This document shows positions 10,302-61,038 of a stretch of 64,000 nt of DNA, piece after piece. A program made the position numbers and the translations under genes. The stretch covers positions 8,435 to 72,434 of the forward strand of contig CAZWZC010000001.1 in the NCBI GenBank assembly GCA_964638755.1. Reading direction: 5' to 3'. The DNA comes from an uncultured Aeromicrobium sp. GTDB lineage: Bacteria > Actinomycetota > Actinomycetes > Propionibacteriales > Nocardioidaceae. The notes beneath the pieces are model-generated. The model did no database searches. It saw only the letters and a program-made list of their open reading frames with translations, and had not been told where the DNA came from. Every line of letters starts with the position of its first letter. The stretch's first letter is position 1.

Positions 10302-10344
10302 TTTGTGCGCCGACGAGGCCGCCCGCAGCCGAGCTGCGCGTGCG

Positions 10345-10386: not shown

Positions 10387-10421
10387 TCGTGAGCCAGAGC
10401 GCCGAGGCGACCCGGCAGGAC

Positions 10422-11588: not shown

Positions 11589-11622
11589 CGCGTCATCGTA
11601 GGCGCTGCCCTAGTGTCGTGGT

Positions 11623-12780: not shown

Positions 12781-12867
12781 CGCGCATCACATTGGTTGCA
12801 TCACGCAACTAATTCGATAGAATGGCGAAGCACGCACTCGTGCCGAAGACCTTTGAAGGACCCACCC

Positions 12868-14484: not shown

Positions 14485-14494
14485 AAGGTCAGCC

Positions 14495-14971: not shown

Positions 14972-15025
14972 GCGACTAGCCCACCGCCGCTAGGTGCATT
15001 GGGAGTCTGCGGGCTGGCTCAGTCG

Positions 15026-15520: not shown

Positions 15521-15590
15521 GCGCGCTCCTAGCCAGATTGCATACCTGAGCATAAGTTTACTCCGCTCAGGTGTCATGAATGACCATTAG

Positions 15591-16838
<1,248 letters not shown>

Positions 16839-16864
16839 AGAAGTCAACTTCTAGGAGGGTTCAC

Positions 16865-18043
16865 ATGGCCCACTACCGAAGTGCGGGCAACATCCCGCCC
16901 AAGCGCCACACGCAGCACCGCGATCCCGACGGCAACCTCTATCGCGAAGAGCTCATGGGCGAGGAAGGCTTCTCGTCTGACTCGTCGTTGCTCTATCACG
17001 TGGGTGTCCCCTCGGCGATCACCGAAGCACGTACGTGGGACCTCCCTGACCAGTCGACAACGCCGAACGAGCCGCTGCTCGCCAGGCACCTCAAGCTGCA
17101 CAGCCTCTTCGATGACGGCGCCGGCAACGACATGGTGACCCATCGCAGACTTGTTCTGGGAAATGCTGACGTCCGCATCTCATACGTCATGGCCGCCGAA
17201 ACGTCGCCTCTCTATCGCAATGCCACCGGCGATGAATGCGTGTTCATCGAGTCCGGCAGTGGGTCGCTTGAGACGGTGTTCGGGCACATCCCGTTCAGCG
17301 ACGGTGACTACTTGATCATCCCGCGGGCAACGACGCATAGATGGGTGCCGACGGGTGACGTCCGCGCATACGCCATCGAGGCCAACAGCCACATCGGTCC
17401 GGCCCGTCGCTACCTCTCGAAGTTCGGCCAACTGCTGGAGCACGCGCCGTACTGCGAGCGTGACCTCCGCGGGCCTGGCGAGCCCGAGGTGCGCCACGAG
17501 ACAGATGTCGAGGTGTTCATCAAGCACCGCGGTTCAGGCCCTGGTGGCCTCAGCGGCAGCGTCCACGTCGTGCCGCAGCACCCGTTCGACGTCGTCGGCT
17601 GGGACGGCTGCCTCTATCCGTATGCGTTCAACGTCGCCGACTTCGAACCCATCACCGGGCGCGTGCACCAGCCCCCGCCGGTCCACCAGGTGTTCGAGGG
17701 CAGCAACTTCGTGATCTGCAACTTCGTCCCCCGCAAGGTCGACTACCACCCGCTGGCGATCCCGGTGCCGTACTACCACTCCAACGTCGACTCCGACGAA
17801 GTCATGTTCTACGTCGCCGGCGACTACGAGGCACGCAAAGGCTCCGACATCGGCAAAGGGTCGATCTCGCTCCACCCCGGAGGACACTCGCACGGCCCAC
17901 AGCCTTCGGCGATCGAGGCGAGCCTCGGCGCGGAGTACTTCGATGAGCTTGCCGTCATGGTCGACACTTTCCGCCCGCTTGAGCTCGGCGAGGGCGGCAC
18001 CGCTTCCGACAACGGCGAATACGCGCTTTCATGGATCAAATGA
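16865..18043 (+). CDS. hmgA: homogentisate 1,2-dioxygenase
   Basis: HPFDVVGWDG, PYYHSNVDSDE, LHPGGHSHGP and ELAVMVDTFRPL motifs. Confidence 0.93.
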   Translation: MAHYRSAGNIPPKRHTQHRDPDGNLYREELMGEEGFSSDSSLLYHVGVPSAITEARTWDLPDQSTTPNEPLLARHLKLHSLFDDGAGNDMVTHRRLVLGNADVRISYVMAAETSPLYRNATGDECVFIESGSGSLETVFGHIPFSDGDYLIIPRATTHRWVPTGDVRAYAIEANSHIGPARRYLSKFGQLLEHAPYCERDLRGPGEPEVRHETDVEVFIKHRGSGPGGLSGSVHVVPQHPFDVVGWDGCLYPYAFNVADFEPITGRVHQPPPVHQVFEGSNFVICNFVPRKVDYHPLAIPVPYYHSNVDSDEVMFYVAGDYEARKGSDIGKGSISLHPGGHSHGPQPSAIEASLGAEYFDELAVMVDTFRPLELGEGGTASDNGEYALSWIK

Positions 18044-18756
18044 TGTTTCATCAATTCTTCGATGACGCGGCGATCTTCCCGCCTGGCAACATGGCGATGG
18101 ATCAAGCCGTGCAAGCGCACCTTGCTCGCCGCGGCACCCCCGACGGCGAGTACGTCGGGCCCTTCATCTGCGGCGCCGCACGGGTCGGCGAGCTGCGTGA
18201 GACGCTTGGCCACGGGCACCTCGAGCTGGCACTCGTCGCGACGGTCGAGGAGTTCACCGATCTTGCCCACGAGCTGGAAGCACAGCAGAACCTCACACTT
18301 GTCGCCGTCGAGCTCAAGGGCCCGGTCGGCGAGCTGCCGACCATGCCCACTGACGTGAAGGTGTTCGTCGAGCGCACCTGGCACGAGACGTACGAGGTCC
18401 CCGACGGCGCCACGCTCAAACTGCGATGCGGTGGACCCGACACCCGCGACACTCCGTCGGCGTGCCAGCTTGGCGGGGCGATCCAGCACTGCGTCGAGAA
18501 CGACCAGCCGTTCAAGCTGACCGCAGGTCTGCACCATGCCTTGCGGACCGAGAACGAACACGGATTCATCAACGTCATGGCCGCCGTCAATGCGGCGATC
18601 GATGGCAGCGATCCGGTGCCGGCCCTGCTGGAGAGTGATGCAGCGGAACTCAAGATCTCGAACCCCGAAGCCGTACGTCGGCTGTTCCGCTCCATCGGCA
18701 CATGCAGCATCGACGAGCCGCTCGACGATCTTCGGGCACTCGAGCTGATCGCGTGA
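18040..18756 (+). CDS. conserved hypothetical protein in the hmgA-fahA operon
   Basis: Overlaps both the hmgA stop (ATGA) and the fahA start (GTGA). Contains DDAAIFPPG, KLRCGG and FKLTAGLHHA motifs. Confidence 0.8.
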   Translation: MMFHQFFDDAAIFPPGNMAMDQAVQAHLARRGTPDGEYVGPFICGAARVGELRETLGHGHLELALVATVEEFTDLAHELEAQQNLTLVAVELKGPVGELPTMPTDVKVFVERTWHETYEVPDGATLKLRCGGPDTRDTPSACQLGGAIQHCVENDQPFKLTAGLHHALRTENEHGFINVMAAVNAAIDGSDPVPALLESDAAELKISNPEAVRRLFRSIGTCSIDEPLDDLRALELIA

Positions 18757-19928
18757 CCGAGCGCACTCGAGCTGATCGCGCAACTGACTTCGGGCAGACC
18801 ACGCTGCCGTACTGCTCCTTCGTGATCGATGGAGAGCAGCATGTCGGCGTGGGGATCGGAACGCAGGTTCTCGACCTCACGTCAGCCTCCGTGGAGATCG
18901 TCCCCGACCACGCTGCACTGTTCGCCGACGGCAGGCTTGACGCCCTCCTCGCCGCCGGACCAGACGTGTGGCACCTGGTACGCGAGTCACTGCTTGCTCA
19001 CACGCCGACCGATCACCTTCACGACGACGTCGAACTCGTGCTGCCGTTCACTGTTGCCGACTACGTCGACTTCTATGCCTCTGAGCACCACGCGACCAAT
19101 GTCGGCAAGATCTTCCGCCCGGACGGAGATGCCCTGACCCCCAACTGGAAACACCTGCCGATCGGATATCACGGCCGCGCTGGCACCGTTGTCGTCTCCG
19201 GCACCTCGATCGTGCGACCGTCGGGGCAGCGCCGAACAACGGACGGTGAGATCACGTTCGGGCCCAGCGTGAAGCTCGACATCGAGGCCGAGCTGGGCTT
19301 CGTCGTCGGAGCACCTTCAGCCCTCGCCACCCCTGTGCCGATCGGCCAGTTCGCCCAGCACGTGTTCGGCGTCTGTCTTGTCAACGACTGGTCTGCGCGC
19401 GACATCCAGGCATGGGAGTACGTCCCGCTTGGCCCGTTCCTCGGCAAGTCGTTCGCCACGTCGATCTCACCGTGGATCATTCCGCTCGCCGCTCTCGACG
19501 GTGCCCGCGTCGATCAGCCGGTGCAGTCGCCCGAGCCGCTTCCCTACCTGCAGGCCGACGAGCCATGGGGGCTGGACATCGAATTCACGGTGACGATCAA
19601 CGGTACCGAGGTCTCGCGGCCACCGTTCGCGTCGATGTATTGGACCGGCGCGCAGATGCTTGCCCACATGACGGTGAACGGAGCATCCCTGCGTACGGGC
19701 GATCTGTTCGCCTCCGGCACGATCAGTGGCGACCAGCCTGACCAGCGCGGGTCGCTGCTTGAGCTGTCATGGAATGGGACTGAGCCGATCATCCTCGCGG
19801 ATGGCTCGACACGCTCGTTCCTCGAGGACGGCGACATCGTCACGATCTCCGCGGCTGCGAATCTGGCGGACGGGCAGCGGATGGAGCTCGGCGACGTGAG
19901 TGGCACGATCGTCGGCCGGCCCGCTTGA
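18753..19928 (+). CDS. fahA: fumarylacetoacetase
   Basis: DYVDFYASEHHA, YHGRAGTVVVSG, LDIEAELG, NDWSARDIQ.WEY.PLGPF and GDLFASGTISG motifs. Confidence 0.94.
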   Translation: MTERTRADRATDFGQTTLPYCSFVIDGEQHVGVGIGTQVLDLTSASVEIVPDHAALFADGRLDALLAAGPDVWHLVRESLLAHTPTDHLHDDVELVLPFTVADYVDFYASEHHATNVGKIFRPDGDALTPNWKHLPIGYHGRAGTVVVSGTSIVRPSGQRRTTDGEITFGPSVKLDIEAELGFVVGAPSALATPVPIGQFAQHVFGVCLVNDWSARDIQAWEYVPLGPFLGKSFATSISPWIIPLAALDGARVDQPVQSPEPLPYLQADEPWGLDIEFTVTINGTEVSRPPFASMYWTGAQMLAHMTVNGASLRTGDLFASGTISGDQPDQRGSLLELSWNGTEPIILADGSTRSFLEDGDIVTISAAANLADGQRMELGDVSGTIVGRPA

Positions 19929-20126
19929 TCTACCAGCCCGTGACTACCCATCGCTGATCTCTCGGCAATGCTTGCGCCAACCCGCGTGGGTGCGAGAACT
20001 ACCTGAGCACGCTTGGCTGCAGGCGTTGCTGCAGGCCTCCTGGATCAGCGGCCGAATCGGCGAACAGGAGTTCCTTGTCGCGCCCGCACCAATTTGCGGT
20101 CGATCCGAGCCTGAACCTGCTCACAA

Positions 20127-21101
20127 TTGACTAGCGTGTCTCTCGTGAACGCCGAGATCTTAGAGCCGCGCCGCAAGCCACGTTGGCGGTGGACCGACGT
20201 CGTCATGGTGATCTTGGTGGTCGTCGGGCTGGTCATCTTGATACGCCTGCTGGGTGACGTCGGTTTCGGCACGATCTGGAAGCAGCTTCGCTCGGCCGAC
20301 CCGAAGTGGCTGATCTTGGGCCTGGTCGCTGCGCAGCTGATGTTCCTGACCCAGGCTGTCGTCCTGCGCGGAGCCTCGGCGGTGCACATCCCGTGGCGGC
20401 CGGCGATCGCGCTTCAAGCGGCGCTCAAGGTCTTCGGGCTCACGCTCCCCGGCTCAACGAGTCGGGTGGCGACCGACGTGCAATTCCTCGAGAACTTCGA
20501 CGTCAAACCGCCTGAAGCGATCCTGACGGCGTCGATTGAAGAAGCCGCCCGCGGTATCTCACGCATCCTCCTGCTCCTGCTCGTGCTCCCGTTCGTCGAC
20601 ATCAAGCTCGAAGGACTGAGCGCGCCATCGATGCGTACCGTCCTGCTCGCAATCGGCGGTGTCGTGGTCGCCGCCGGGTTAGTCTCGTTCATCCCTCGCG
20701 CGCGCCAGAAGGTCATGGACATCGCCGCCCGGATCTGGAAGAGCCTCGTCGTCCTCGGCGGTCAGCAGAAGCGCCAGATCGGCATCCTCGGTGGAGCGCT
20801 CGCCACCGAGCTCGTGTACGCGTTGGCGCTCGGCTGCTTCGCCCAGGCGTACGACATCGGACTCTCGCCGATCGAGCTCGTCGCGGTCAACACTGCCGGA
20901 TCGATGCTGGCCAGCGTCGTCCCGTCACCCGGCGGAATCGGCAGTGCAGAGGCGGCACTCACGGGTGTTCTCGTGGCGCTCGGTGTACCAGCAGAAACTG
21001 CGTTCCCGATCGCGCTGACTCAGCGTCTGGGAACGCAGTACCTGCCTCCGCTGTGGGGTTTGCTCTGTCTTCATTGGTTGCGCGGCAAGTCCTACCTCTA
21101 G
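20127..21101 (+). CDS. UPF0104 / lysylphosphatidylglycerol synthase TM (flippase-like) protein
   Basis: Multi-TM protein with a PSPGGIG..E motif. Confidence 0.78.
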   Translation: MTSVSLVNAEILEPRRKPRWRWTDVVMVILVVVGLVILIRLLGDVGFGTIWKQLRSADPKWLILGLVAAQLMFLTQAVVLRGASAVHIPWRPAIALQAALKVFGLTLPGSTSRVATDVQFLENFDVKPPEAILTASIEEAARGISRILLLLLVLPFVDIKLEGLSAPSMRTVLLAIGGVVVAAGLVSFIPRARQKVMDIAARIWKSLVVLGGQQKRQIGILGGALATELVYALALGCFAQAYDIGLSPIELVAVNTAGSMLASVVPSPGGIGSAEAALTGVLVALGVPAETAFPIALTQRLGTQYLPPLWGLLCLHWLRGKSYL

Positions 21102-51604: not shown

Positions 51605-52822
51605 GTGTCGGTGGGATTTTCCGGATACGCCGAGCTGTGGGCTGACAAGCGGGTCAGGACCCTGTTCATCGCGGCGTTCTTCGCCCGCATCCCGGCCATG
51701 GCAGCGCCATTGGTGTTCACCCTTTTCGTGGTCGGACCTCTTGGCGGAACCTACGCTCAGGCCGGCATCGTCGCGGCAGCCTCGACGATCGGCGCGGGCG
51801 TCGGTTCACCATGGCGCGGCCGGCTGATCGACAAGCTCGGCATGCAGCGGGCCATCATCCCGTCGATCGTCGCGGTCGGAGTGCTGTATCCGGTCGCGGC
51901 ACTCTCCTCTTCATACGGGCTGCTCGTCCCGCTGGCGTTCCTGATGGGCCTGTTCCTGATCCCGATCTTCTCGATCGTGCGGTTGTCGCTTAGCGTCATG
52001 GTCGAGGAGCGCCTGCGCCGTACGGCCTTCTCGGCCGACAGTGTCGTCGCCGAGGCCAGCTTCATCATCGGTCCGGCCGCGGGTGTCGTGCTGGTCACCC
52101 AAGCCAGCGCGGCCTGGGCACTGTTCGCCATCGGCATGACCGAGGTCATCGCTGGCCTGATGTTCCTGCGCCTCAACCCGCCGACGCGTTCGGTCGTCGA
52201 TCCGGACAAGCCGGTCGTCGAGTCAGCCGAAGCCAATGGCCCGTGGATGTCGGTACCGCTCGCATTCCTCTTCCTCATCTCCGGCGGCACGCTCGCTGCG
52301 CTGATCGGCGCCGACCTCGGCATCGTCGCGCAGCTCCGCGAGATCGACCACGTCGGCTCGATCGGGTTCACGTACGGACTCTGGGGCCTGTCCTCGCTGC
52401 TCGGCGGATTGATCTACGGATCACTCAATCGCTCGATCCGTCCCACCTATCTGCTGCTTGCCCTCGGCCTGACCACGATCCCGGTCGGGCTGGGCACCGA
52501 GGTGTGGTCGCTGTCTCTGTGGGTGATCCCGACCGGCTTCCTGTGTGCTCCAACCATGACGGCGGCGGCGGAGTGGATCGCCAAGCTCGTCCCCGAGGAG
52601 CGGCGTGGGGAGGCGATGGGTTGGCAGGGCACGGCGTTCATGATCGGTGGTGCTGCCAGCTCGCCGGTCATCGGCGTGGCGATCGATGAGGTCGGGGCCT
52701 GGGGCGGATTCGTCGTCGGCGGCCTGATCGCATCGGCGATTGCCCTGCTGTGCTGGGGAGGTCAGCTGATCCCGGCCCTTCGACCCGACACCCATGCGAT
52801 CGAAGAAACGGCGGTCAATTGA
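51605..52822 (+). CDS. MFS transporter
   Basis: About 12 TM segments; GRLIDKLG motif A. Confidence 0.85.
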   Translation: MSVGFSGYAELWADKRVRTLFIAAFFARIPAMAAPLVFTLFVVGPLGGTYAQAGIVAAASTIGAGVGSPWRGRLIDKLGMQRAIIPSIVAVGVLYPVAALSSSYGLLVPLAFLMGLFLIPIFSIVRLSLSVMVEERLRRTAFSADSVVAEASFIIGPAAGVVLVTQASAAWALFAIGMTEVIAGLMFLRLNPPTRSVVDPDKPVVESAEANGPWMSVPLAFLFLISGGTLAALIGADLGIVAQLREIDHVGSIGFTYGLWGLSSLLGGLIYGSLNRSIRPTYLLLALGLTTIPVGLGTEVWSLSLWVIPTGFLCAPTMTAAAEWIAKLVPEERRGEAMGWQGTAFMIGGAASSPVIGVAIDEVGAWGGFVVGGLIASAIALLCWGGQLIPALRPDTHAIEETAVN

Positions 52823-54305
52823 GGAAGCCGCCGCCGACGAGATCTCGTACGGACGCTGCGTACGTCGAACGCAGTTCTTGCCCATCGCGCTCGAGCAGAA
52901 TCGCCAGCGCATCGAAGATCTGGCCAGCAGTCAGGTCACCGTCGCTGGCACTGACAAGTCCGGCCTCGACGGTGTCGACCTGACGAGCACGGCGTATGCC
53001 CTGCTGCAGACGCAGCACGATCGACTCGGGGTGCTCGGAGCCAACCGGACCCCGGGTCTCTTCGACCAGGTCGGGCGCATGTCGCCACGTCCGGTCGAGC
53101 AGCGCGGAGTCGTCAAGGTTGCGCAGCACGTCGACGCGATGGCCCCAGCCCGCGACGCTCGGCCCGATCGGCGGTGCGATCTCGCCGGTCCACTCCTCGA
53201 TGCGCAGCACCGGTGTGGCGCTCGTACGGCGCATGCTGAGCCACCCGAAGCCGACGGCGTCGATGCGCTCAGCGGCGAACCAGTCGAGCCAGGCGCCGTA
53301 GCGCCGCGAGTAGTCGGGCGTGCCCGCCAGCCCAGCATCGGCAAGCCACATCTCGACGTATGCCGCCGGATCGATCAGCTCACGTTGCAGGACCCACGCG
53401 TCGAGGGCGCTGCCGTCGAACCATTCCTCGAGATCGGCGCGCCAGTCGCGGCCGTCGTGGTGTGCCCAGTTGGCGAGGATCTGGCACCAACCACCGTCGT
53501 TCAGATGCGCCTCGGCGTTCTCCACGAGGTGCCGTACGACGCTGTCGCCGGGCATCCCCGAGTCGCGGTAGACCAGCACATCGGCGCCGGGCGGCGAGAT
53601 CACAAACGGCGGGTTGGTGGCGATCAGATCGAACGTGTCGCCGGCCACCGGATCGAACAGGCTGCCGTCGCGCACGTCGATGTCGAGCTCGTTGAGCGCA
53701 GCCGTGAGCCGCGCCATCGCCAGTGCACGCGGGTTGACGTCAGTGGCGACGACGATGTCTGCGTGCTGCGCGAGATGGAGCGCCTGGACCCCGCAGCCGG
53801 TGCCGAGGTCGAGCGCGCGTCCGACCGGCTCTCGGACGGTCAGCTGAGCAAGGGAGGACGACGCCTCGCTGATGCCCAGCACGTGCTCGGGGTTCATCAC
53901 GCAAACCCCGTTCCCTGAGCTTGTCGAAGGGTTGAGTCCCGGTGTCGGATCGCAGGCGATCCACCAGTCATGCGACTCGTCGCCGTAGGGCCTGATTTCG
54001 ACCAGTGCACGGACCTCGTCTCCTGACACCAGCATCATGTCGGCAGCAGCAAGGGGTTCGACGAGATCGGGGAGGGCCGCGTCGGCGCGACGTCGATCGA
54101 CCGGCACCTGCAACGCGAACAGGCGGACCAGAGTTGCGAGGTCACCCGTGCCCTGGGTCGCCCGCAGAGCCGGTACGACCTGGTTGCGGCCAAGCGCTCG
54201 ATGCGCCTCTTCGCCAAGCAGCGCATACACGGCATCGACGGTGAACCCCGCGCGGCCAAGGGCGGCACGGAGCTGAGGAACATACGCGTCGTCGATCACC
54301 TGCAC
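52815..54305 (-). CDS. class I SAM-dependent methyltransferase (MTS/HemK-like)
   Basis: LDLGTGCGVQ and NPPF motifs. Start uncertain (GTG 54305 or 54299). Confidence 0.85.
   Translation of the reverse strand: MQVIDDAYVPQLRAALGRAGFTVDAVYALLGEEAHRALGRNQVVPALRATQGTGDLATLVRLFALQVPVDRRRADAALPDLVEPLAAADMMLVSGDEVRALVEIRPYGDESHDWWIACDPTPGLNPSTSSGNGVCVMNPEHVLGISEASSSLAQLTVREPVGRALDLGTGCGVQALHLAQHADIVVATDVNPRALAMARLTAALNELDIDVRDGSLFDPVAGDTFDLIATNPPFVISPPGADVLVYRDSGMPGDSVVRHLVENAEAHLNDGGWCQILANWAHHDGRDWRADLEEWFDGSALDAWVLQRELIDPAAYVEMWLADAGLAGTPDYSRRYGAWLDWFAAERIDAVGFGWLSMRRTSATPVLRIEEWTGEIAPPIGPSVAGWGHRVDVLRNLDDSALLDRTWRHAPDLVEETRGPVGSEHPESIVLRLQQGIRRARQVDTVEAGLVSASDGDLTAGQIFDALAILLERDGQELRSTYAASVRDLVGGGFLN
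53909..53931 (-). repeat. REP-like motif inside the methyltransferase coding sequence
   Basis: CCC-TTCGA-CAAG-CTCA-GGG-AACG, read in frame as PSTSSGN. Confidence 0.55.
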
Positions 54306-54321
54306 ACCTTCGCAGATGACA

Positions 54322-54355
54322 CGAGCGGCGCCACCCTGTCGGGTGACGCCGCTCG
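54322..54355 (-). terminator. intrinsic terminator-like hairpin after hppA
   Basis: 15-bp stem with one G-U pair and a 4-nt loop, 14 nt past the hppA stop. Confidence 0.65.
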
Positions 54356-54369
54356 AAGCAATGCTGTGA

Positions 54370-56799
54370 CTACGCCTTCTTGGCGGGAGCCTTCTTCGCC
54401 GCCGTCGGCGCCTTCTTGGCCGGAGCCGGAGCAGCAACGATCTCCGACGGTCCTGCATCGAGGGCGATCGGGCGACGCTTGGAGACGTACACCGCGATGG
54501 CGATGATCAGTACGGAAGCGCCAGCGATGCTGTAACGCAGCAGATCGTCAGCATCCTTGCCGTAGCTGTACTTGATGATCAGCGGCGCCGCCAGCAGGGC
54601 GACGAGGTTCATCACCTTGAGCAGCGGGTTGATCGCCGGACCGGCAGTGTCCTTGAACGGGTCACCGACAGTGTCACCGATGATCGTCGCCTCATGTGCC
54701 GGCGACCCCTTGCCGCCGTGGTTGCCGTCCTCGACCAGCTTCTTGGCGTTGTCCCACGCACCACCGGAGTTGGCCAGGAAGACCGCCATCAGCAGACCGG
54801 TGGCAATGGCACCAGCGAGGTAGGCACCCAACGGGCCGATGCCAAGGCCGAAGCCGACAGCGATCGGAGCGAAGATCGCCAGGATTCCCGGCGTTGCCAG
54901 CTCACGCAATGAGTCGCGTGTGCAGATGTCGACGACCTTGCCGTACTCAGGACGACCGGTGCCTTCCATGATGCCCGGGATCTCCTTGAACTGGCGACGG
55001 ACTTCGTACACGACAGCGCCAGCTGCACGACCGACCGCGTTGATGGCCAGACCCGAGAAGAGGAACACGACCGCAGCACCGATGATCAGACCGACGAGGT
55101 TGCTCGGATCGGCGACGTTGAGGATGCCGCTGAACGCGTACGTCTCACCGACGTTGATGTCCTTGACGCTCTCGGCGGTGAAGCCGGCGTTTGCGATGGC
55201 CTTGCCGATCGAGTCGGTGAACGAGCCGAACAAGGCGGTTGCGGCGAGCACTGCCGTCGCGATCGCGATGCCCTTGGTGATGGCCTTCGTCGTGTTGCCG
55301 ACGGCGTCGAGCTCGGTGAGGATCTGTGCGCCCTCTTCATCGACGTCACCCGACATCTCAGCGATGCCCTGGGCGTTGTCGCTGACCGGACCAAACGTGT
55401 CCATCGCGACGATGACGCCGACCGTGGTCAGCAGACCACAACCCGCGAGCGCCACGGCGAACAGCGAGACGATGATCGAGCCGCTGCCGAGCAGGAAGGC
55501 GCCGAACACGGCCGCAGCGATGACCAGTGCCGTGTAGACAGCCGACTCGAAACCGACCGAGAGACCCGACAAGATGACGGTCGCGGCGCCGGTGAGCGAG
55601 GTCTTGCCGACATCCTTGACCGGACGGGTCTCGGTGCCGGTGAAGTAGCCCGTGAGGGCAAGGATCACAGCAGCGAGCACGATGCCGATGAGCACGGCGA
55701 TGATCGCGATGAGTCGCGGCGAACCGTCGAGGCCCGGAGCGTCGATGCCCTGCGCCTGACCGATGGTTGCGATCAGCGAGTTCGAGTCGAGCCCCTTGAG
55801 CTCCTTGAACGTGTCCGGCAGGTAGAACCACGCAGCAGCCGAGGCTCCGACAGCCGAGATCAGCGCCGAGATGTAGAACGAGCGGTTGATCGTGGTGAGT
55901 CCGCCCTCTCCCACACGGGGACGAGTGATGTAGACACCGATGATCGCCGTCAGTGCGCCGATCGCGGGGACGATCAGCGGGAACACGAGGCCCTTTTCGC
56001 CGAAGGCCACCGAACCGAGGATCAACGCGGCGACCAGCGTCACGGCGTACGACTCAAAGAGGTCAGCGGCCATACCGGCGCAGTCGCCAACGTTGTCGCC
56101 CACGTTGTCGGCGATCGTGGCGGCGTTGCGCGGGTCATCCTCAGGGATGTTCTGCTCGACCTTGCCGACCAGGTCGGCTCCGACGTCAGCGGCCTTGGTG
56201 AAGATGCCGCCTCCAACACGCATGAACATGGCAAGCAGGGCCGCACCGAACGCGAATCCCTCGAGCACCGAGGGGGCCTTGCCCTGGTAGTACAGGACGA
56301 TCGCGGATGCGCCGATCAGGCCGAGGCCGACCGTCAGCATGCCGACGTGACCGCCGGTGCGGAAGGCGATGCGCATGGCCCGCTCGCGGCCCTCGTTCTG
56401 GGCAGCTGCCGCGACGCGGATGTTCGATCGCGTGGCGAGCCACATACCGAGATAGCCGATCGATGCCGAGAAGCCGGCGCCGAGGAGGAAGAACGCCGAA
56501 CGTCCGATCCTGATCTCAGAGGTGCCGGGCAGCACGAACAGCAGTCCGAAGGCCAGCAGCGCGAAGACGGCAAGGGTCTTGAACATGCGTCCGAGGTATG
56601 CCGCAGCACCCTCCTGGACGGCCTGTCCGATCTCCTGCATCTTTTCGGTGCCTTCGGATGCCTTGAGCACTTCGGCGCGGAAAACCGCCGCCAGGATGAG
56701 AGCGAGGACGCCGACTCCGAGCACGCACCACACGATGATCGTGTTGTCGTTGGAGAGGTCGAGGTCCCCGGCTGCCGCAACGAGAGTCGCGTTCGCCAT
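54370..56799 (-). CDS. hppA: membrane-bound proton-translocating pyrophosphatase (K+-independent type)
   Basis: GGIFTKAADVGADLVGKVE, DNVGDNVGD, DAVGNTTKA and GDTVGDPFKDT motifs. Confidence 0.94.
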   Translation of the reverse strand: MANATLVAAAGDLDLSNDNTIIVWCVLGVGVLALILAAVFRAEVLKASEGTEKMQEIGQAVQEGAAAYLGRMFKTLAVFALLAFGLLFVLPGTSEIRIGRSAFFLLGAGFSASIGYLGMWLATRSNIRVAAAAQNEGRERAMRIAFRTGGHVGMLTVGLGLIGASAIVLYYQGKAPSVLEGFAFGAALLAMFMRVGGGIFTKAADVGADLVGKVEQNIPEDDPRNAATIADNVGDNVGDCAGMAADLFESYAVTLVAALILGSVAFGEKGLVFPLIVPAIGALTAIIGVYITRPRVGEGGLTTINRSFYISALISAVGASAAAWFYLPDTFKELKGLDSNSLIATIGQAQGIDAPGLDGSPRLIAIIAVLIGIVLAAVILALTGYFTGTETRPVKDVGKTSLTGAATVILSGLSVGFESAVYTALVIAAAVFGAFLLGSGSIIVSLFAVALAGCGLLTTVGVIVAMDTFGPVSDNAQGIAEMSGDVDEEGAQILTELDAVGNTTKAITKGIAIATAVLAATALFGSFTDSIGKAIANAGFTAESVKDINVGETYAFSGILNVADPSNLVGLIIGAAVVFLFSGLAINAVGRAAGAVVYEVRRQFKEIPGIMEGTGRPEYGKVVDICTRDSLRELATPGILAIFAPIAVGFGLGIGPLGAYLAGAIATGLLMAVFLANSGGAWDNAKKLVEDGNHGGKGSPAHEATIIGDTVGDPFKDTAGPAINPLLKVMNLVALLAAPLIIKYSYGKDADDLLRYSIAGASVLIIAIAVYVSKRRPIALDAGPSEIVAAPAPAKKAPTAAKKAPAKKA

Positions 56800-56889: not shown

Positions 56890-57243
56890 TCAAGGGGTCT
56901 CGGGATGTGTCGCCGTACGGGCCTCGTCGACCGAGGCATACAAACCGAAGACCTTGTCCAGTCCGGTGATCCCAAAGATCTTCAGGATGCGCTCGTGGGT
57001 GCACACGATGTCGAGCGAACCGCCGTCGGCGCGTACGCGCTTGAGCGCACCGACCAGTACACCGAGGCCCGTGGAGTCGAGGAAGTCGACCTTCTCGACG
57101 TCGATGATGAGCCGTGTGTGGCCGGCATCGATTGCCGTGACGATTGCCTCGCGGAGCTTGGGCGCGGTGTAGACGTCGACTTCGCCGCCGACCTCGATGA
57201 TCTCGAAATCATCGACCGTGCGCGATGACAGTGCGAGCTCCAT
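56890..57243 (-). CDS. STAS anti-sigma-factor antagonist (BldG/RsbV-like)
   Basis: [13 protein letters not shown] and [12 protein letters not shown] motifs. Confidence 0.92.
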
Positions 57244-57320
57244 GTCATGCATCTAATCACGATCCGGCAGGGGTCGCCGCTCGCCTGAACCGGCGAGCAC
57301 GGTCTGGGACACTTCACCTC

Positions 57321-59633
57321 GTGGATCCTGCCGACATCGTCCTTCGCCACAGCGAACGGGTGACCCACGTCGAGCACGTCCCCGCCCGCCATGCCGTCAT
57401 CGAACCGTGGCCGGCGTGGGTGGATCCCGAGGTGCGCGCGATGTATGCGAGTGAGGGCATCACCGAGCTCTGGGGTCACCAGGGCGAGGCGTTGGGCCAC
57501 ATACATGCCGGGCGGCACACCGTGATCTCGACCGGCACCGCTTCGGGCAAGTCGCTGGCGTTCCAGGTGCCGGCGCTGACGACTCTTGCGTACGGCCGGG
57601 CTGGAAGTGGCTTGCAAGGCAACCGGATGCCGAGCGTCCTCTATCTGGCGCCGACCAAGGCGCTGGCCGCCGACCAGCTCCGGCGACTGTCCTCGGGGCC
57701 GTCGTTCGTACGGCCGGCGACGGTCGACGGCGACAACTCCCGCGAGGAGCGGGCGTGGGCTCGCGATCACGCCAACTATCTGCTCACCAATCCGGACACC
57801 CTGCACCACACGATCCTTCCCGGGCATGCGCGCTGGAGTCGGGTGCTGGGCGGGGTGAACCATGTCGTGATCGACGAGTGCCACCACTATCGCGGCGTGT
57901 TCGGTGCACACGTCGCCCATGTGCTGAGGCGGCTGCGGCGCATTTGTGCGCACTACGGCGCCGATCCGGTGTTCGTCCTCTCCTCTGCGACCGTCGCTGA
58001 GCCGGACGCCTTCGCCGCACGCTTGACCGGGCTCGACATCGTCGCGGTCACTGACGATGCGTCGCCGCACGCAGCCCAGACCATTGCACTGTGGGAGCCG
58101 CCGCTGCTGCCGGGTCACGATGTGGAGACGCAGACGCCGGTGCGCCGGGCCGCCAACACCGAGGCCGGCGAGCTGCTCACCGATCTGGTCATCGGGGGCG
58201 TACGCACGCTGGCCTTCGTACGCTCGCGGCGAGGCGCCGAGACTGTCGCGGCGACGGCCCAGCGGAACCTCGCCGAGGTCGACTCTTCGTTGGCTGCACG
58301 GGTCGCGACCTATCGAGGCGGCTACCTGCCCGAGGAGCGTCGAGAGCTCGAACGTCGGCTGCGAGACGGGGAGCTGCTGGGGTTGGCGAGCACCAATGCC
58401 CTTGAGCTCGGGATCGACATCGCCGGGTTGGACGCGATCATCAGTGTCGGCTTCCCGGGCACTCGTGCCGCGCTGCGTCAGCAGTTCGGGCGGGCGGGTC
58501 GGGCCGGCCGCGACTCCCTCGGGATCCTGATCGCACGCGACGAGCCGCTCGACACCTATCTCGTCCATCATCCTGAGGCGCTGCTCGGTGCTCCGGTCGA
58601 GTCGTCGGTGTTCGACCCCGACAACCCGTACGTGCTCGGCCCGCATCTGGCGGCTGCTGCGCACGAGCTTCCGCTGACTGAGGCGGACTTCGAGCTGTTC
58701 GGGCCGCGTGCCGCCGAAGGCATCAAGGCGCTCGAGGCGGCCGGGCTGTTGCGCAAGCGTCCGGCCGGGTGGTTCTGGACCAAGAGGGAGCGTGCCAGCG
58801 ACCTGGCCGACATACGTTCCAGCGGAGGGACACCCGTGCAGATCGTCGACGCCGCAACAGGTCGGTTGATCGGCACAGTGGACGCCGGGTCCGCCGACGC
58901 CGCAGTGCACGACGGCGCGGTGTACCTGCACCAGGGCGAGGTTCATGTGGTGGATGAATATGACGTTGAGGGCGGTGCCGCGATCGTGCATCGTGAAGAT
59001 CCGGAGTACTCGACGATGGCGCGTTCGGTCACCGAGATCACGATCACCGAGACGGAGCGGACCACCCGGTGGGGTGATGCGGCGATGTCGTTCGGCTCGG
59101 TCGACGTCGTCACCCAGGTCCTCTCCTATACGAAGCGGAGCACGACCGGCGGCGGCATGCTCGGCGAGGAGCTGCTCGACCTTCCTGAGCGCACGCTGCC
59201 GACCAAGGCAGTCTGGTGGACGCTCACCGACAAGGCTGTGGCCGAGGCGCTTTCGAGCGCCGACATCCCGGGAGCCGCCCATGCTGCCGAGCATGCCGCG
59301 ATCGGCCTGCTCCCCCTGCTGGCGACGTGCGATCGATGGGACATCGGTGGCGTGTCGACTGCGCGGCATGCTGACACCGGCACCCTTACCGTGTTCGTCT
59401 ACGACGGCTATCCGGGAGGAGCTGGATTTGCCGAACGCGGATATGAGGTGGCCGAGCGGTGGCTCACGATCACTCGCGATGCGATCATCGCGTGCGAGTG
59501 CCGCAGCGGCTGTCCTTCGTGCGTTTATTCGCCCAAGTGCGGCAACGGCAACGAACCGTTGGACAAGGCCGGAGCAGTACGCCTGCTGGACGCGATCCTT
59601 GCCGGTGCGCGGCCTCCGGCAACCTCCGGCTGA
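57321..59633 (+). CDS. DEAH-box helicase with DUF1998 (MrfA/Hrq1/SftH-like)
   Basis: TGTASGKS, DECH, STNALELGID and QQFGRAGR motifs; C-terminal CECRSGCPSC. Start estimated. Confidence 0.9.
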   Translation: MDPADIVLRHSERVTHVEHVPARHAVIEPWPAWVDPEVRAMYASEGITELWGHQGEALGHIHAGRHTVISTGTASGKSLAFQVPALTTLAYGRAGSGLQGNRMPSVLYLAPTKALAADQLRRLSSGPSFVRPATVDGDNSREERAWARDHANYLLTNPDTLHHTILPGHARWSRVLGGVNHVVIDECHHYRGVFGAHVAHVLRRLRRICAHYGADPVFVLSSATVAEPDAFAARLTGLDIVAVTDDASPHAAQTIALWEPPLLPGHDVETQTPVRRAANTEAGELLTDLVIGGVRTLAFVRSRRGAETVAATAQRNLAEVDSSLAARVATYRGGYLPEERRELERRLRDGELLGLASTNALELGIDIAGLDAIISVGFPGTRAALRQQFGRAGRAGRDSLGILIARDEPLDTYLVHHPEALLGAPVESSVFDPDNPYVLGPHLAAAAHELPLTEADFELFGPRAAEGIKALEAAGLLRKRPAGWFWTKRERASDLADIRSSGGTPVQIVDAATGRLIGTVDAGSADAAVHDGAVYLHQGEVHVVDEYDVEGGAAIVHREDPEYSTMARSVTEITITETERTTRWGDAAMSFGSVDVVTQVLSYTKRSTTGGGMLGEELLDLPERTLPTKAVWWTLTDKAVAEALSSADIPGAAHAAEHAAIGLLPLLATCDRWDIGGVSTARHADTGTLTVFVYDGYPGGAGFAERGYEVAERWLTITRDAIIACECRSGCPSCVYSPKCGNGNEPLDKAGAVRLLDAILAGARPPATSG

Positions 59634-59671
59634 GCCGACCCAAAAACTAGAACGTGTACTAGTTTGGCCCG

Positions 59672-60676
59672 ATGGACCTCTATCGGATCAAGACAGCAGC
59701 AACCGGGATCAAACGGCTGGCGACGTTGTCGGACGAGGACAAGCAGTCCGCCATCGACGCATTCCAGTTCTTCCAAGGCATGCAGGCCGGCGAACCCACC
59801 CAGACGGCAGATGAGACGAAGGCGGTGGCTGACTACTACAAGGTCCTCAACAACATGCTGTCGGTGTTCGATCTGGAGAAGCTCTACATTCCGCCGATGC
59901 TCGACACGACCAAGGGGCTCTACGACAACCAGATCCTGATCGAGAAGGCGATCCTCGCCGAGCTCAATCTGCAGGACCCGGCCGGCTCCCACCTGCTCGA
60001 CATGGGTTGTGGCCGCGGGCGGATCGCCCACCACTTCGCCACCCTGACCGGCGGTCAGGTCTCGGGCTACAACATCGACCCGAACCAGCTGGAGAACGCC
60101 GACGCTTGGGCGGAACAGACCGGTATGAGCGACCGGCTCCACTTCAAGCTCGGCGATCACCACAAACCACTCGACTATGAGTCTGAGTCCTTTGACGGCT
60201 GCTTCTCGTTCCAGGCGGTCTGGCCATTCTTCAAAAAGAATGAGCTCGATGCGCACGCGCAGGAGATGTATCGGGTGCTAAAGCCCGGAGCCCGCTACGC
60301 GTGCTCGGAATATCTGCTGACCCCGTACTTCGACTGGGGCAACGACGAACATGTCGCGTTGCACAAGAAGTTCCTGCCCACTTTGGCGGCGACGCAGTCG
60401 ATGTATCCCGCGGACGTGTGTGCCGCACTCGAACGGGCGGGCTTCACCATCGTGCTGTCGGCACCGTCGAAGAGCGAAGCCTGGCCACTGTGCGACCAGA
60501 AGGCCAATCTCATTCGCCGCGGCCGCAAGGTGGTGCGCGGGTTGGAGAGGGTGCGGGTCGCCCCGGCCTGGGTCGAGGAGTCGCTCGAGCTGCTCCAGAC
60601 CGGCGGCGAGGCGTGGAACCAGGCGGAGCGGGCAAAGATCGCCGATCTCAACTGGCGCATCGTGGCCGAGAAGTAG
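59672..60676 (+). CDS. SAM-dependent methyltransferase with sterol-C24-methyltransferase-like layout
   Basis: LDMGCGRG, YRVLKPG...SEY.LT..FD..N.EH and ALERAGF motifs, plus a helical C-terminus ending IVAEK. Confidence 0.7.
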   Translation: MDLYRIKTAATGIKRLATLSDEDKQSAIDAFQFFQGMQAGEPTQTADETKAVADYYKVLNNMLSVFDLEKLYIPPMLDTTKGLYDNQILIEKAILAELNLQDPAGSHLLDMGCGRGRIAHHFATLTGGQVSGYNIDPNQLENADAWAEQTGMSDRLHFKLGDHHKPLDYESESFDGCFSFQAVWPFFKKNELDAHAQEMYRVLKPGARYACSEYLLTPYFDWGNDEHVALHKKFLPTLAATQSMYPADVCAALERAGFTIVLSAPSKSEAWPLCDQKANLIRRGRKVVRGLERVRVAPAWVEESLELLQTGGEAWNQAERAKIADLNWRIVAEK

Positions 60677-60687
60677 CAGCTCCGAAG

Positions 60688-61038
60688 TCAGGGCAGGTAG
60701 AAGTCGGGCGCTGCTCGGGCCTTCTGCTCAAACGACCACGTGTGACCCCACCACGACTTGCTGGTGCCCCCGGCAGTCACCGTGGCGACGTCATAGTCCA
60801 TCCGGCATGACACGAGCCGTGCACCGTTGCGTTTGACCAGATCGGCCGCCGCATCGCAGCCATCGTCGCCGTTGACACTGGCCCGACTGGCTGCCAGCGC
60901 GGCTAGATCGGCGGCCGACGCGACCGAGTGCTTGAGTCGCACCAGCCCGGCCACCTGCGCCATCACCAGTGCGCCCAGCGTCAGCAGCAACGCGGCCGAC
61001 GCTGCGTAGACGGTGACGGCGCCACGCTCGCGGTTCAC
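60688..61038 (-). CDS. TadE-like (Rv3654c family) pilus accessory protein
   Basis: ERGAVTV...AADLAALAA...GCDAA...NGA.L..C motif. Confidence 0.83.
   Translation of the reverse strand: MNRERGAVTVYAASAALLLTLGALVMAQVAGLVRLKHSVASAADLAALAASRASVNGDDGCDAAADLVKRNGARLVSCRMDYDVATVTAGGTSKSWWGHTWSFEQKARAAPDFYLP

What the first reader, a model, noticed from the sequence alone, without database searches (positions are those of the whole stretch)
59672..60676. Orphan sterol-methyltransferase-like gene inserted between the DUF1998 helicase and the Tad locus
The overall layout parallels eukaryotic ERG6/SMT from memory: N-terminal V..YY helix, LDxGCG, YRVLKPG...E..LT..FD..N.EH, AL..AGF and a C-terminal VR.LE..RVAP...VAEK segment resembling the Sterol_MT_C domain. 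However, the sterol-binding YE(Y/F/W)GWG motif is replaced by FDLEKLYIPP. It is a lone gene interrupting the usual helicase/TadE adjacency, and no sterol synthesis genes are in the window. Inference: a horizontally acquired lipid or terpenoid C-methyltransferase with a new substrate, possibly acting on scavenged sterols.
Basis: partly seen in the sequence, partly recalled or inferred. Interest (0 to 1): 0.68.

Follow-up and report, generated by a model that had tools for sequence, protein, structure and literature searches.

The report
Steroid-regulon sterol-methyltransferase-like gene insertion
A single inserted gene encodes an uncharacterised, extraordinarily conserved cousin of sterol methyltransferases that has lost the classic sterol side-chain pocket and carries the DNA switch (KstR operator) that bacteria use to turn on cholesterol breakdown, so it probably methylates a steroid-derived compound in a way not yet described.

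Summary
It is a ~1.05-kb single-gene insertion. In 80 relatives of the helicase the MTase is absent, and in the nearest Aeromicrobium genomes helicase and TadE abut. The protein is homologous end to end with Erg6-type sterol C-methyltransferases (hhalign 99.9%, E 5e-34) but fails the published SMT residue test (10 of 25 kept). Region I GWGxxFHF is replaced by an invariant EK(M/L)YIPP motif and E195 is Q. It belongs to a large uncharacterised sister clade found in bacteria, amoebae and fungi. The bacterial subfamily is 76-93% identical across at least six phyla although synonymous sites are saturated (dN/dS 0.06-0.12). The new finding is a 20-bp KstR-type operator overlapping the -10 hexamer, 6 nt before the ATG. 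It scores 27.9 bits, above the median of 47 published KstR sites, and travels with the gene in 9 unrelated loci. The same variant sits between cyp125 and fadA5 in at least 97 Streptomyces genomes. One homolog lies 1.8 kb from kstD-hsaA. Other copies pair with TetR repressors or P450s. Best reading: a KstR-controlled accessory methyltransferase acting on a steroid-derived substrate with chemistry other than C-24 methylation. Substrate and reaction are untested.

The parts
59672..60676 (+). 334-aa class-I SAM-dependent methyltransferase of the SMT superfamily, in the 'EKMYIPP' sister clade (stop codon included)
   Evidence: ORF. Pfam Methyltransf_25/31/11. hhalign to Erg6p 99.9%, E 5e-34. AF2 pLDDT 90.3. 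Fold neighbours AtmM, MitM, RebM, SpnF, TleD, GPPMT.
59867..59896 (+). Codons for F66-D-L-E-K-L-Y-I-P-P75, the clade-defining motif that replaces SMT Region I (Y81EYGWG..FHF91) together with a 5-residue deletion
   Evidence: E69, Y72 and P74 are invariant in 68 diverse sequences. None of the 150 best representatives has GWGxxFHF.
59996..60022 (+). Codons for motif I, L109-D-M-G-C-G-R-G-R117 (SAM-binding glycine loop). R115 is invariant and R117 nearly so, where SMTs have V..G-P
60212..60214 (+). Codon for Q181, the position of the essential E195 of Erg6p Region III
   Evidence: Q in 12 of 12 close and 53 of 56 distant family members.
60527..60673 (+). C-terminal helical segment (about residues 286-334) homologous to the Sterol_MT_C region but below Pfam detection
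   Evidence: alignment reaches Erg6p residue 374. (no Pfam hit). (relative P0136 passes the cutoff and P0160 is marginal).
59646..59665 (.). KstR-type operator ACTAGAACGTGTACTAGTTT (core palindrome 59648-59661), with GTT changed to GTA in the right half-site
   Evidence: The only such site in the window, 0.09 expected. 27.9 bits against a median of 26.7 for 47 published sites. Conserved upstream of the gene in 9 independent loci. The same 18-mer lies between cyp125 and fadA5 in at least 97 Streptomyces loci.
59660..59665 (+). Putative -10 hexamer TAGTTT, 6 nt before the ATG (leaderless-type promoter, inferred) and inside the operator
   Evidence: Sequence read directly. The consensus sigma-70 scan found nothing, so this rests on the TANNNT pattern and spacing only.
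59634..60687 (.). Inserted segment of about 1.05 kb (operator/promoter plus ORF plus 11 bp) between the helicase stop and the tadE stop
   Evidence: Absent in 80 helicase-bearing relatives. No IS or repeats were seen at the junctions.
57225..59633 (+). Left flank (context only): MrfA-type helicase (DEAD, Helicase_C, WHD_HRQ1, MZB)
   Evidence: 88% identical to Aeromicrobium panaciterrae.
60688..61038 (-). Right flank (context only): TadE/G-like pilus protein, first gene of the convergent Tad locus

Best explanation
The gene encodes a probably soluble SAM-dependent small-molecule methyltransferase (no N-terminal membrane anchor is apparent). It belongs to a deep, uncharacterised sister clade of the sterol C-methyltransferases. 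Shown: it keeps the SMT scaffold (SAM site, N-terminal helical lid, C-terminal helices), while the sterol side-chain pocket (aromatic Region I, E195, W286) is replaced by clade-specific near-invariant residues (E69-K-L-Y72-I-P74-P75, N60, N86-Q87, E91, Q181, H227). Shown: in an Aeromicrobium-like host it arrived as a one-gene cassette with its own promoter. That promoter is overlapped by a KstR-type operator, and the cassette is most similar to Rhodococcus/Nocardia copies. Inferred: KstR represses the gene by occluding the -10 hexamer. The gene is switched on when sterol side-chain catabolites release KstR (from my own knowledge, 3-oxo-cholestenoyl-CoA-type ligands). The enzyme then methylates a steroid-derived intermediate or a closely related polycyclic or isoprenoid lipid. 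Inferred, weaker: the chemistry is not Delta24-olefin C-methylation. It is more like that of the other SMT-family enzymes that lack the aromatic Region I, the STRM-type 4-SMTs, which methylate an enolisable 3-oxosteroid nucleus. Methylation of a heteroatom nucleophile is also possible. In other lineages the same enzyme is controlled by dedicated local TetR repressors, sometimes together with a P450. That suggests a hydroxylate-and-methylate side branch for a hydrophobic substrate.
For: Superfamily membership: hhalign 99.9%, E 5e-34 over Erg6p 69-374; 27% identity over 229 aa by BLASTP; full-length hits to annotated putative SMTs from Mastigamoeba and fungi; confident model with the RebM/TleD/GPPMT-type fold. 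Altered pocket. KstR link: the operator scores 27.9 bits, above the median of 47 published sites. It is the only such site in 64 kb, with 0.09 expected. It is conserved with the gene in 9 loci whose flanks differ, and such sites are almost absent elsewhere in about 1 Mb scanned. The identical GTA variant lies between verified cyp125 and fadA5 orthologs in at least 97 Streptomyces genomes, the orthologous position of the EMSA-positive Rv3545c/Rv3546 site, and it also occurs in Nocardioides. Steroid context elsewhere: the L067 copy is 1.8 kb from kstD (E 1e-122) and hsaA (E 2.5e-146), which flank two canonical KstR boxes. The L057 copy is co-oriented 32 nt after a CYP125/142/124-like P450. Nocardioidaceae have KstR regulons and grow on cholesterol (PMC7593942, PMC7807495). 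STRM precedent: 334 aa, 21% identical to Erg6p, no aromatic Region I, 3-oxosterol substrates (PMC6997595, PMC9136925). Strong function: dN/dS 0.06-0.12 with saturated dS and host-adapted GC3 of 0.32-0.99.
Against: No biochemical or expression data exist. KstR in mycobacteria also controls genes for other lipids (PMC1995591). The operator departs from GTT, which 46 of 47 published sites keep. KstR was not shown to be present in the window's host, and there are no steroid genes in the window. Most copies (Myxococcota, Binatia, SAR86, other Gammaproteobacteria) have no steroid gene nearby, and their local TetRs are generic TtgR/AcrR-like. Neighbouring P450s are mixed: CYP130, CYP107-like, CYP125/142-like. 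Orthology to STRM could not be tested. BmSTRM does not accept cholest-4-en-3-one, the main catabolic 3-ketosteroid.
Confidence: 0.5

Rival explanations
1. It is a methyltransferase for a non-steroid hydrophobic metabolite or xenobiotic, for example an isoprenoid or branched-chain lipid, a terpenoid, or an aromatic natural product. It is switched on by TetR-type sensors as a detoxification or scavenging step. The KstR box in one subclade reflects the broad lipid scope of that regulon or opportunistic promoter capture.
For: Divergent generic TetR regulators of three unrelated types sit beside the gene in at least 14 loci. Neighbouring P450s are heterogeneous. Other neighbours include an enoyl-CoA hydratase, an SRPBCC protein, a GST, an SDR and a carotenoid-cleavage oxygenase. 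The closest solved folds act on indolocarbazole sugars, mitomycin, teleocidin and geranyl diphosphate. The KstR regulon includes general lipid genes. The gene occurs in SAR86, which to my knowledge is not a known steroid degrader.
Against: The nearest named sequence family is SMT. The operator variant is the one used at cyp125/fadA5. L067 is linked to kstD-hsaA. 76-79% identity across phyla implies one ubiquitous, fixed substrate and not varied xenobiotics.
Confidence: 0.33
2. It is a true sterol C-24 (side-chain) methyltransferase of the ERG6/SMT1 type, as the automatic JGI name says.
For: JGI/KEGG-style annotation as 'sterol 24-C-methyltransferase'. End-to-end homology to Erg6p. Many copies are in Polyangiales/Myxococcota, a group that to my knowledge includes sterol producers.
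Against: Only 10 of the 25 residues conserved in all functional SMTs are kept. Region I GWGxxFHF is deleted or replaced, E195 is Q, G132-P133 are R-I, W286 is absent, and 4 of 5 Sterol_MT_C residues differ (criteria from bioRxiv 10.64898/2025.12.19.695621). No Sterol_MT_C Pfam hit. The host context is catabolic and not biosynthetic.
Confidence: 0.03
3. It methylates a conserved macromolecule (protein or RNA), which would explain the housekeeping-like sequence conservation.
For: 76-93% identity over the whole length across at least six phyla, with dN/dS about 0.06-0.12.
Against: Patchy, accessory distribution and mobility. TetR/KstR-type inducible control and P450 partners. All structural neighbours are small-molecule MTases with a closed helical lid. 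Weak PrmA/RrnaAD Pfam hits cover only the generic SAM core.
Confidence: 0.05
4. It is a steroid-acid carboxyl O-methyltransferase that does the job of OPCMT (methyl-esterifying C22 or C26 steroid acids) from a different fold family.
For: Sterol-degrading mycolicibacteria do methyl-esterify 3-oxo-4-pregnene-20-carboxylic acid (PMC10193983). R115 and R201 are invariant and R117 nearly so, and they could bind a carboxylate or CoA phosphate (inference only). KstR control fits side-chain acid intermediates.
Against: The known OPCMTs have the LCM fold (IPR007213), and this protein has no LCM match. No direct evidence. This is a sub-case of the best explanation with a specific chemistry.
Confidence: 0.08

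Closest known systems
Sterol C-24 methyltransferases (Erg6p/SMT1/SMT2, and the bacterial SMTs of Brown et al. 2023)
   Same: Homologous over the whole catalytic core and the C-terminal Sterol_MT_C region (hhalign 99.9%). Shares Y74, the D-x-G-x-G motif, G147, Q154, D189, G217, G268 and L341. Similar length and domain order.
   Different: Lacks the aromatic Region I (GWGxxFHF) with a 5-residue deletion, and lacks E195, G132-P133, W286 and most Sterol_MT_C signature residues. No Pfam Sterol_MT_C hit. Sits in a catabolic regulon context and not in sterol synthesis.
STRM-type sterol C4-methyltransferases (C. elegans STRM-1/4-SMT; dinoflagellate and haptophyte STRMs)
   Same: SMT-superfamily enzymes of the same size (334 aa) that are about as far from Erg6p (21% against 27% here) and also lack the aromatic Region I. 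They act on 3-oxosteroids, the compound class generated at the start of bacterial sterol catabolism.
   Different: Orthology is untested, because no STRM sequence could be obtained and none was named among the hits. STRMs are eukaryotic and biosynthetic. BmSTRM rejects cholest-4-en-3-one.
RebM/AtmM, MitM, TleD, SpnF/SpnL, GPP C-methyltransferase and BezA structural clan
   Same: Best structural matches (Foldseek E 3e-17 to 1e-13, TM 0.6-0.87) and best PDB sequence hits. Class-I Rossmann core with an N-terminal helical lid over a hydrophobic small-molecule pocket.
   Different: Only 13-22% identity. These are secondary-metabolite tailoring enzymes embedded in biosynthetic clusters. Their E-x-x-H-type motif after strand 4 is Q-A-x-x-P/Y here.
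KstR regulon of actinobacterial cholesterol catabolism
   Same: The promoter carries a 20-bp site that matches the KstR profile better than the median published site and overlaps the -10, as described for kstR itself. The same variant is at cyp125/fadA5 in Streptomyces.
   Different: No methyltransferase of this family has been reported in any KstR regulon. The gene is unlinked to steroid clusters in the window. The right half-site is GTA and not GTT.
OPCMT-like steroid-acid carboxyl methyltransferases (Mycolicibacterium MnMT4, ML2640c family)
   Same: SAM-dependent methylation of a steroid catabolic intermediate by sterol-degrading actinobacteria. A widely distributed family.
   Different: A different fold family (LCM, IPR007213). 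There is no sequence relationship to this protein.

Membership tests
Canonical sterol C-24 methyltransferase (ERG6/SMT) | Sterol-binding Region I: Y81EYGWG86 / 84GWGxxFHF91 aromatic box | tested here: not met
   Replaced by L63-S-V-F66 plus a 5-residue deletion plus D67-L-E-K-L-Y-I-P-P75. None of the 150 best representatives has GWGxxFHF. Criterion.
Canonical sterol C-24 methyltransferase (ERG6/SMT) | Region II 125DxGxGxxGP133 | tested here: not met
   D110, G112 and G114 are kept, but G132 is R117 and P133 is I118, and these are near-invariant in the clade.
Canonical sterol C-24 methyltransferase (ERG6/SMT) | Region III glutamate E195 | tested here: not met
   Q181. Q in 65 of 68 family sequences.
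Canonical sterol C-24 methyltransferase (ERG6/SMT) | Region IV G217 and scaffold residues Y74, G147, Q154, D189, G268 | tested here: met
   G206, Y56, G132, Q139, D175, G257.
Canonical sterol C-24 methyltransferase (ERG6/SMT) | Sterol_MT_C domain (Pfam PF08498) with G333, L341, G352, F357, P359 | tested here: not met
   No Pfam hit at E<=1. Only L341 is kept (L308); the others are W300, E319, A324, L326. The segment is nevertheless homologous, and relative P0136 passes the Pfam cutoff.
Canonical sterol C-24 methyltransferase (ERG6/SMT) | All 25 residues conserved in functional SMTs | tested here: not met
   10 of 25 identical. The numbering ruler was Erg6p recalled from memory and validated on 30 of 30 published landmarks.
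Canonical sterol C-24 methyltransferase (ERG6/SMT) | Methylation of Delta24 sterols in vitro | not testable with these tools
   Needs an enzyme assay.
SMT superfamily (broad sense) | End-to-end profile homology to SMTs, and class-I SAM-MTase core with N-terminal lid and C-terminal helical extension | tested here: met
   hhalign 99.9%, E 5e-34, 281 columns. Pfam MTase domains. AF2 model pLDDT 90 and fold neighbours.
STRM-type sterol C4-methyltransferase | SMT homolog lacking the aromatic Region I | tested here: met
   (published property of 4-SMT).
STRM-type sterol C4-methyltransferase | Closer sequence relationship to STRM-1/BmSTRM than to 24-SMTs | not testable with these tools
   No STRM sequence was obtainable. 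Supplements lacked it and no hit is named STRM.
STRM-type sterol C4-methyltransferase | 3-oxosteroid-dependent methylation | not testable with these tools
   Needs an enzyme assay.
KstR regulon | KstR-type palindrome in the promoter region | tested here: met
   ACTAGAACGTGTACTAGTTT at 59646-59665 scores 27.9 bits against a published range of 16.4-34.5. It deviates at one near-invariant position (GTT to GTA).
KstR regulon | The same operator form is used at undisputed steroid-catabolic genes | tested here: met
   An identical 18-mer lies between cyp125 (E 1.4e-156) and fadA5 (E 4e-147) in at least 97 Streptomyces loci.
KstR regulon | KstR encoded in the same genome | not tested
Nocardioidaceae in general have KstR.
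KstR regulon | KstR binding, and derepression by cholesterol or in a kstR deletion | not testable with these tools
   Needs EMSA and expression data.
OPCMT-like carboxyl methyltransferases | LCM fold (IPR007213 / PF04072), ML2640c-like | tested here: not met
   No LCM hit in Pfam at E<=1 and no ML2640c-type chain among the PDB hits.

The most novel reading that the evidence does not exclude
This is the founding bacterial member of an ancient, extremely conserved family of steroid-nucleus (or otherwise non-C24) methyltransferases. Steroid-degrading and other heterotrophic bacteria switch the enzyme on with their sterol sensors. It would be a bacterial counterpart of eukaryotic STRM/4-SMT enzymes. 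That would add a previously unknown methylation branch to bacterial sterol catabolism. It would also provide a widespread bacterial source of nuclear-methylated steroids, with consequences for reading 4-methylsterane biomarkers.
Probability: 0.15. Interest if true: 0.85.

Novelty: new variant of a known kind. Interest (0 to 1): 0.62.

Why it matters
Bacterial sterol catabolism is well mapped in a few model actinobacteria, and no SMT-like methyltransferase has been placed in it. A KstR-controlled SMT cousin with a rebuilt active site would point to an unrecognised reaction on steroid intermediates. The reaction could serve detoxification, export, signalling or routing. This is relevant to steroid biotechnology with mycolicibacteria, Rhodococcus and Nocardioides, where unexplained methylated by-products matter. 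It is also relevant to lipid biomarkers, where methylated steranes are assigned to eukaryotes. The family itself is remarkable. It is an accessory, mobile, single-gene enzyme held at 76-93% amino-acid identity from SAR86 to Nocardioides with saturated synonymous sites, and it has paralogous expansions in amoebae and fungi that are currently mis-annotated as sterol 24-C-methyltransferase. The gene is small and self-contained and occurs in cultured strains (Rhodococcus marinonascens NBRC 14363, Rhodococcus sp. H36-A4, Dietzia alimentaria 72, Nocardioides dokdonensis), so the hypothesis can be tested directly.

Tried and rejected
(1) The first AF2 model, from a shallow alignment of sequences at least 78% identical, was unusable (pLDDT 54). 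It was replaced by a model from a 68-sequence deep alignment. (2) The mafft --add placement of Erg6p was out of register at motif I and was discarded in favour of hhalign. (3) The conserved-neighbour search across about 92 loci found no universally linked gene, only recurrent TetR and P450 partners. (4) An SOS/LexA-box reading of the palindrome was rejected by inspection: the spacing and the right half do not fit GAAC-N4-GTTC. (5) I worried that the GTA variant belongs to a different regulator, because the genome scan returned mostly Streptomyces. That was resolved when those sites proved to lie between cyp125 and fadA5. (6) OPCMT was considered as the identity and rejected because it has a different fold. 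(7) I tried to obtain STRM-1 via paper supplements, primer-derived termini, a second homolog search seeded with a eukaryotic member, and cluster names. None yielded a STRM sequence. (8) The local TetRs were tested for similarity to KstR and are generic TtgR/AcrR-like. (9) The consensus sigma-70 promoter and terminator scan found nothing. (10) Literature searches for a methyltransferase in KstR regulons found none.
Full report
OBSERVATION. The ORF at 59672-60676 (+) is real: ATG start, 334 aa. Downstream and convergent lies a Tad/Flp pilus locus (TadE/G-like, DUF4244, two T2SSF proteins). Pfam and NCBIfam see only generic class-I SAM-methyltransferase cores, with weak CMAS and UbiE hits and no Sterol_MT_C at E<=1. 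The best PDB sequence hits are MitM, TleD, RebM and SpnF.

IT IS AN INSERTION. I fetched 80 genomes that encode a relative of the helicase. The closest are Aeromicrobium (A. panaciterrae 88%), so the host is an Aeromicrobium-like Nocardioidaceae. None of the 80 has the methyltransferase at this position. In the nearest genomes (L098, L104, L106, L109) the helicase stop lies 0-100 bp from the convergent tadE. The order PPase-STAS-helicase, then convergent Tad, is kept out to Streptomyces. Junction alignments show a segment of about 1.05 kb (59634-60687) that holds only a 38-bp upstream spacer, the ORF and 11 bp, with no IS or repeat scars. Only two uncultured relatives (L001, L004) share the insertion. 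Another close relative (L007) has flanks 73-97% identical to window genes at 9.6-20 kb. It carries a different allele (85% identical) at a different locus, next to its own TetR regulator.

WHAT THE PROTEIN IS. The family is very large and very conserved. The 120 best database hits are all at least 78% identical. At least 370 species genomes carry a relative. The best 80 loci are 76-90% identical and span Mycobacteriales (Rhodococcus, Nocardia, Dietzia, Mycobacterium, Mycolicibacterium), Nocardioidaceae, Frankiaceae, Polyangiales/Myxococcota, Binatia, SAR86, Halieaceae, Cellvibrionales, Spirochaetales and Gemmatimonadota. This is not recent spread. GC3 ranges from 0.32 (SAR86) to 0.99 (Nocardioides). 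dS is 0.86 even against Rhodococcus and is saturated between phyla, and dN/dS is 0.06-0.12.

A search of 1.8 billion cluster representatives found 2756 relatives at E<=0.001. These include full-length proteins at 25-41% identity from Mastigamoeba (several paralogs), Paramoeba, Sordariomycete fungi, an archaeal MAG, Verrucomicrobia and freshwater Actinomycetota. Many of them are auto-named 'sterol 24-C-methyltransferase'. None of the 150 best representatives has the SMT Region I motif GWGxxFHF. Nearly all carry E(K/R)(M/L)Y(I/L)PP or a close variant. A 68-sequence alignment shows these residues to be invariant: Y56, N60, E69, Y72, P74, N86, Q87, E91, G112-C-G-R-G116, G132, N134, Q139, R201, G206, H227, G257 and P298. 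With this alignment AlphaFold gives a confident model (pLDDT 90.3, pTM 0.89). Its nearest solved folds are AtmM/RebM, MitM, SpnF, TleD, a sarcosine/dimethylglycine MTase, GPP C-methyltransferases, BezA and SpnL. No canonical SMT chain appeared in either PDB search, and a 2025 preprint states that no SMT structure has been reported.

MEMBERSHIP TEST AGAINST CANONICAL SMT. A 2025 preprint lists 25 residues conserved in all functional SMTs. As a numbering ruler I used yeast Erg6p recalled from memory. It reproduces 30 of 30 published landmark residues, but it is still a recalled sequence. Profile-profile alignment of the family to Erg6p gives 99.9% probability, E 5e-34, over 281 columns covering Erg6p residues 69-374. 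BLASTP of the window protein gives 27% identity over 229 residues. So the protein is a true homolog along the whole SMT core and the Sterol_MT_C segment. However, only 10 of the 25 residues are kept: Y74, D125, G127, G129, G147, Q154, D189, G217, G268 and L341. The whole Region I box is replaced together with a 5-residue deletion. G132-P133 are R-I. E195 is Q181. W286 is absent. Four of the five Sterol_MT_C residues differ. The replacements are near-invariant across the clade, so they are a fixed alternative active site and not decay. Verdict: a member of the SMT superfamily, but not a member of the canonical 24-SMT family.

THE REGULATORY FINDING. The 38-bp spacer contains AAACTAGAACGTGTACTAGTTT. 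The same element lies upstream of the gene in eight other independent loci: L001, L002, Rhodococcus marinonascens L003, L004, Nocardia L005, Rhodococcus L015, L025 and Rhodococcus L028. Their flanking genes are otherwise unrelated. The published KstR operator is the palindrome TAGAAC(N2)GTTCTA, and kstR's own site is ACTAGAACGTGTTCTAATAG (PMC1995591). A weight matrix built from the 47 published sites scores the window site at 27.9 bits. The published sites range from 16.4 to 34.5 bits with a median of 26.7. In about 1 Mb of scanned DNA, sites of that strength occur almost only directly upstream of this gene. The window has just this one site, where 0.09 are expected by chance.

The site differs from 46 of the 47 published ones at one core base (GTT to GTA). 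To test whether that variant is a true KstR-type operator I scanned genomes for ACTAGAACNNGTACTAGT. At least 120 loci were returned, mostly Streptomyces. In 97 of them the motif lies between a divergent pair of genes. I verified these as CYP125 steroid C26-monooxygenase (E 1.4e-156) and the steroid thiolase FadA5 (E 4e-147). This is the orthologous position of the EMSA-positive Rv3545c/Rv3546 site. Several Nocardioides genomes also carry the variant. In the window and in L004 the operator overlaps a TANNNT hexamer (TAGTTT) that ends 6 nt before the ATG, which suggests a leaderless transcript. In Rhodococcus-type loci a leader of about 35 nt with a GAAGGG Shine-Dalgarno sequence and a GTG start follows the operator. 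That KstR actually binds and represses is an inference.

OTHER CONTEXT. In L067 the gene lies 1.8 kb downstream of kstD (E 1.4e-122). kstD is divergent from hsaA (E 2.5e-146), with two canonical KstR boxes between them. In at least 14 loci the gene is divergent from a TetR-family gene, and these TetRs fall into three unrelated types. They are generic TtgR/AcrR-like and not KstR-like. Co-oriented, directly adjacent P450s occur in Dietzia L031 (CYP107-like), L057 (closest to CYP125/CYP142/CYP124, E 7e-65) and L043 (a CYP130 ortholog, E 4e-159, plus a second P450). Elsewhere the neighbours vary. An unbootstrapped NJ tree puts all KstR-box copies in one cluster. That cluster includes the Aeromicrobium-like window, L001 and L004 together with Rhodococcus/Nocardia, and it is apart from the TetR-linked copies of other Nocardioidaceae. 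This fits lateral transfer of the operator-plus-gene cassette. The window has no hsaA, kstD, cyp125 or fadA5 homolog.

HOW IT MOST LIKELY WORKS. Shown: an SMT-superfamily small-molecule methyltransferase with a rebuilt substrate pocket, a one-gene cassette insertion, a KstR-type operator on its promoter, and very strong purifying selection. Inferred: KstR represses the gene, sterol side-chain catabolites induce it, and the enzyme methylates a steroid-derived or closely related hydrophobic substrate. The loss of the cation-stabilising aromatic box and of E195 argues against Delta24-olefin C-methylation. The characterised SMT-family enzymes that also lack that box are the STRM/4-SMTs. C. elegans STRM-1 is 334 aa and 21% identical to Erg6p, and these enzymes methylate C-4 of 3-oxosteroids through enolisation (PMC6997595, PMC9136925). 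This is the best mechanistic analogy, but orthology could not be tested. I put 0.5 on the steroid-linked explanation. I put about 0.33 on a non-steroid hydrophobic substrate, 0.08 on steroid-acid esterification specifically, 0.05 on a macromolecular target and 0.03 on canonical C-24 methylation. OPCMT, the known steroid-acid carboxyl methyltransferase of mycolicibacteria, has the LCM fold and is unrelated.

NOVELTY AND VERDICT. No paper in the searchable library links an SMT-like methyltransferase to KstR or to bacterial steroid catabolism. The clade is uncharacterised and widely mis-annotated. I rate it a new variant of a known kind, with interest 0.62.

Noticed in passing
L007:1-17002 compared with window 9600-20400: A close relative of the window organism (flanking genes 73-97% identical to window genes at 9.6-20 kb) carries a different allele of the methyltransferase (85% identical). 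It sits inside that syntenic block, next to a divergent TetR gene and a different palindrome (ACTAAGGC-N4-GCCTTAGT). Related genomes therefore acquired the gene twice, at different sites and with different regulators.
   Followed up: partly
L178-L297 (e.g. L179:4579-4596): In at least 97 Streptomyces genomes the cyp125/fadA5 intergenic region holds an extended, highly conserved 26-bp palindrome, (C/G)AGAACTAGAACGCGTACTAGTTC(T/C)G. Its right half-site is GTA and not the mycobacterial GTT. This suggests a lineage-specific form of the KstR operator.
   Followed up: partly
L043:6009-8449: In a Nocardioides MAG the methyltransferase is followed 7 nt later by a clear ortholog of CYP130 (E 4e-159 to M. 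tuberculosis CYP130, to my knowledge an orphan P450) and then a second P450. This could be a lead to CYP130's natural substrate.
   Followed up: partly
L015:8001-9009 and L017:8001-9007: The copies in Rhodococcus sp. 1168 and in MAG MFD02581.bin.2.180 are split or N-terminally truncated in the ORF calls (a 296-aa ORF, and two overlapping ORFs). These are possible frameshifts, pseudogenes or assembly errors.
   Followed up: no
L064 and L066: A copy sits in a bin labelled Nitrosopumilus (an archaeon), which is probably a binning error. A deep-sea 'Myxococcota' MAG (L066) has a weaker KstR-like box (18.7 bits) about 100 nt upstream of its copy.
   Followed up: no
window 59634-59671 compared with L001-L003, L005, L015, L025, L028 upstream regions: The window and L004 lack the leader of about 35 nt (with a GAAGGG Shine-Dalgarno sequence and a GTG start) that follows the operator in Rhodococcus-type loci. 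Here the operator/-10 ends 6 nt from an ATG, which implies a switch to a leaderless transcript after transfer.
   Followed up: partly
window 52815-54458 (-): A second, unrelated methyltransferase gene (DUF7059 + MTS small-domain MTase, 547 aa as called) lies next to the H+-pyrophosphatase. It is conserved in L001 and L004.
   Followed up: no
P0160, P0307, P0309, P0310, P0232 (Mastigamoeba balamuthi): At least five paralogs of the EKMYIPP clade occur in one anaerobic amoeba. The clade is also expanded in Xylariales and Nectriaceae fungi, with N-terminal membrane anchors. All are auto-annotated as sterol C-methyltransferases although they lack Region I.
   Followed up: partly
L211, L249, L289, L295 (Nocardioides spp.): The same GTA-variant operator lies 14-30 nt upstream of a lipoprotein of about 500 aa (possibly an ABC substrate-binding protein) in several Nocardioides genomes. 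This could be another unrecognised KstR-regulon member.
   Followed up: no
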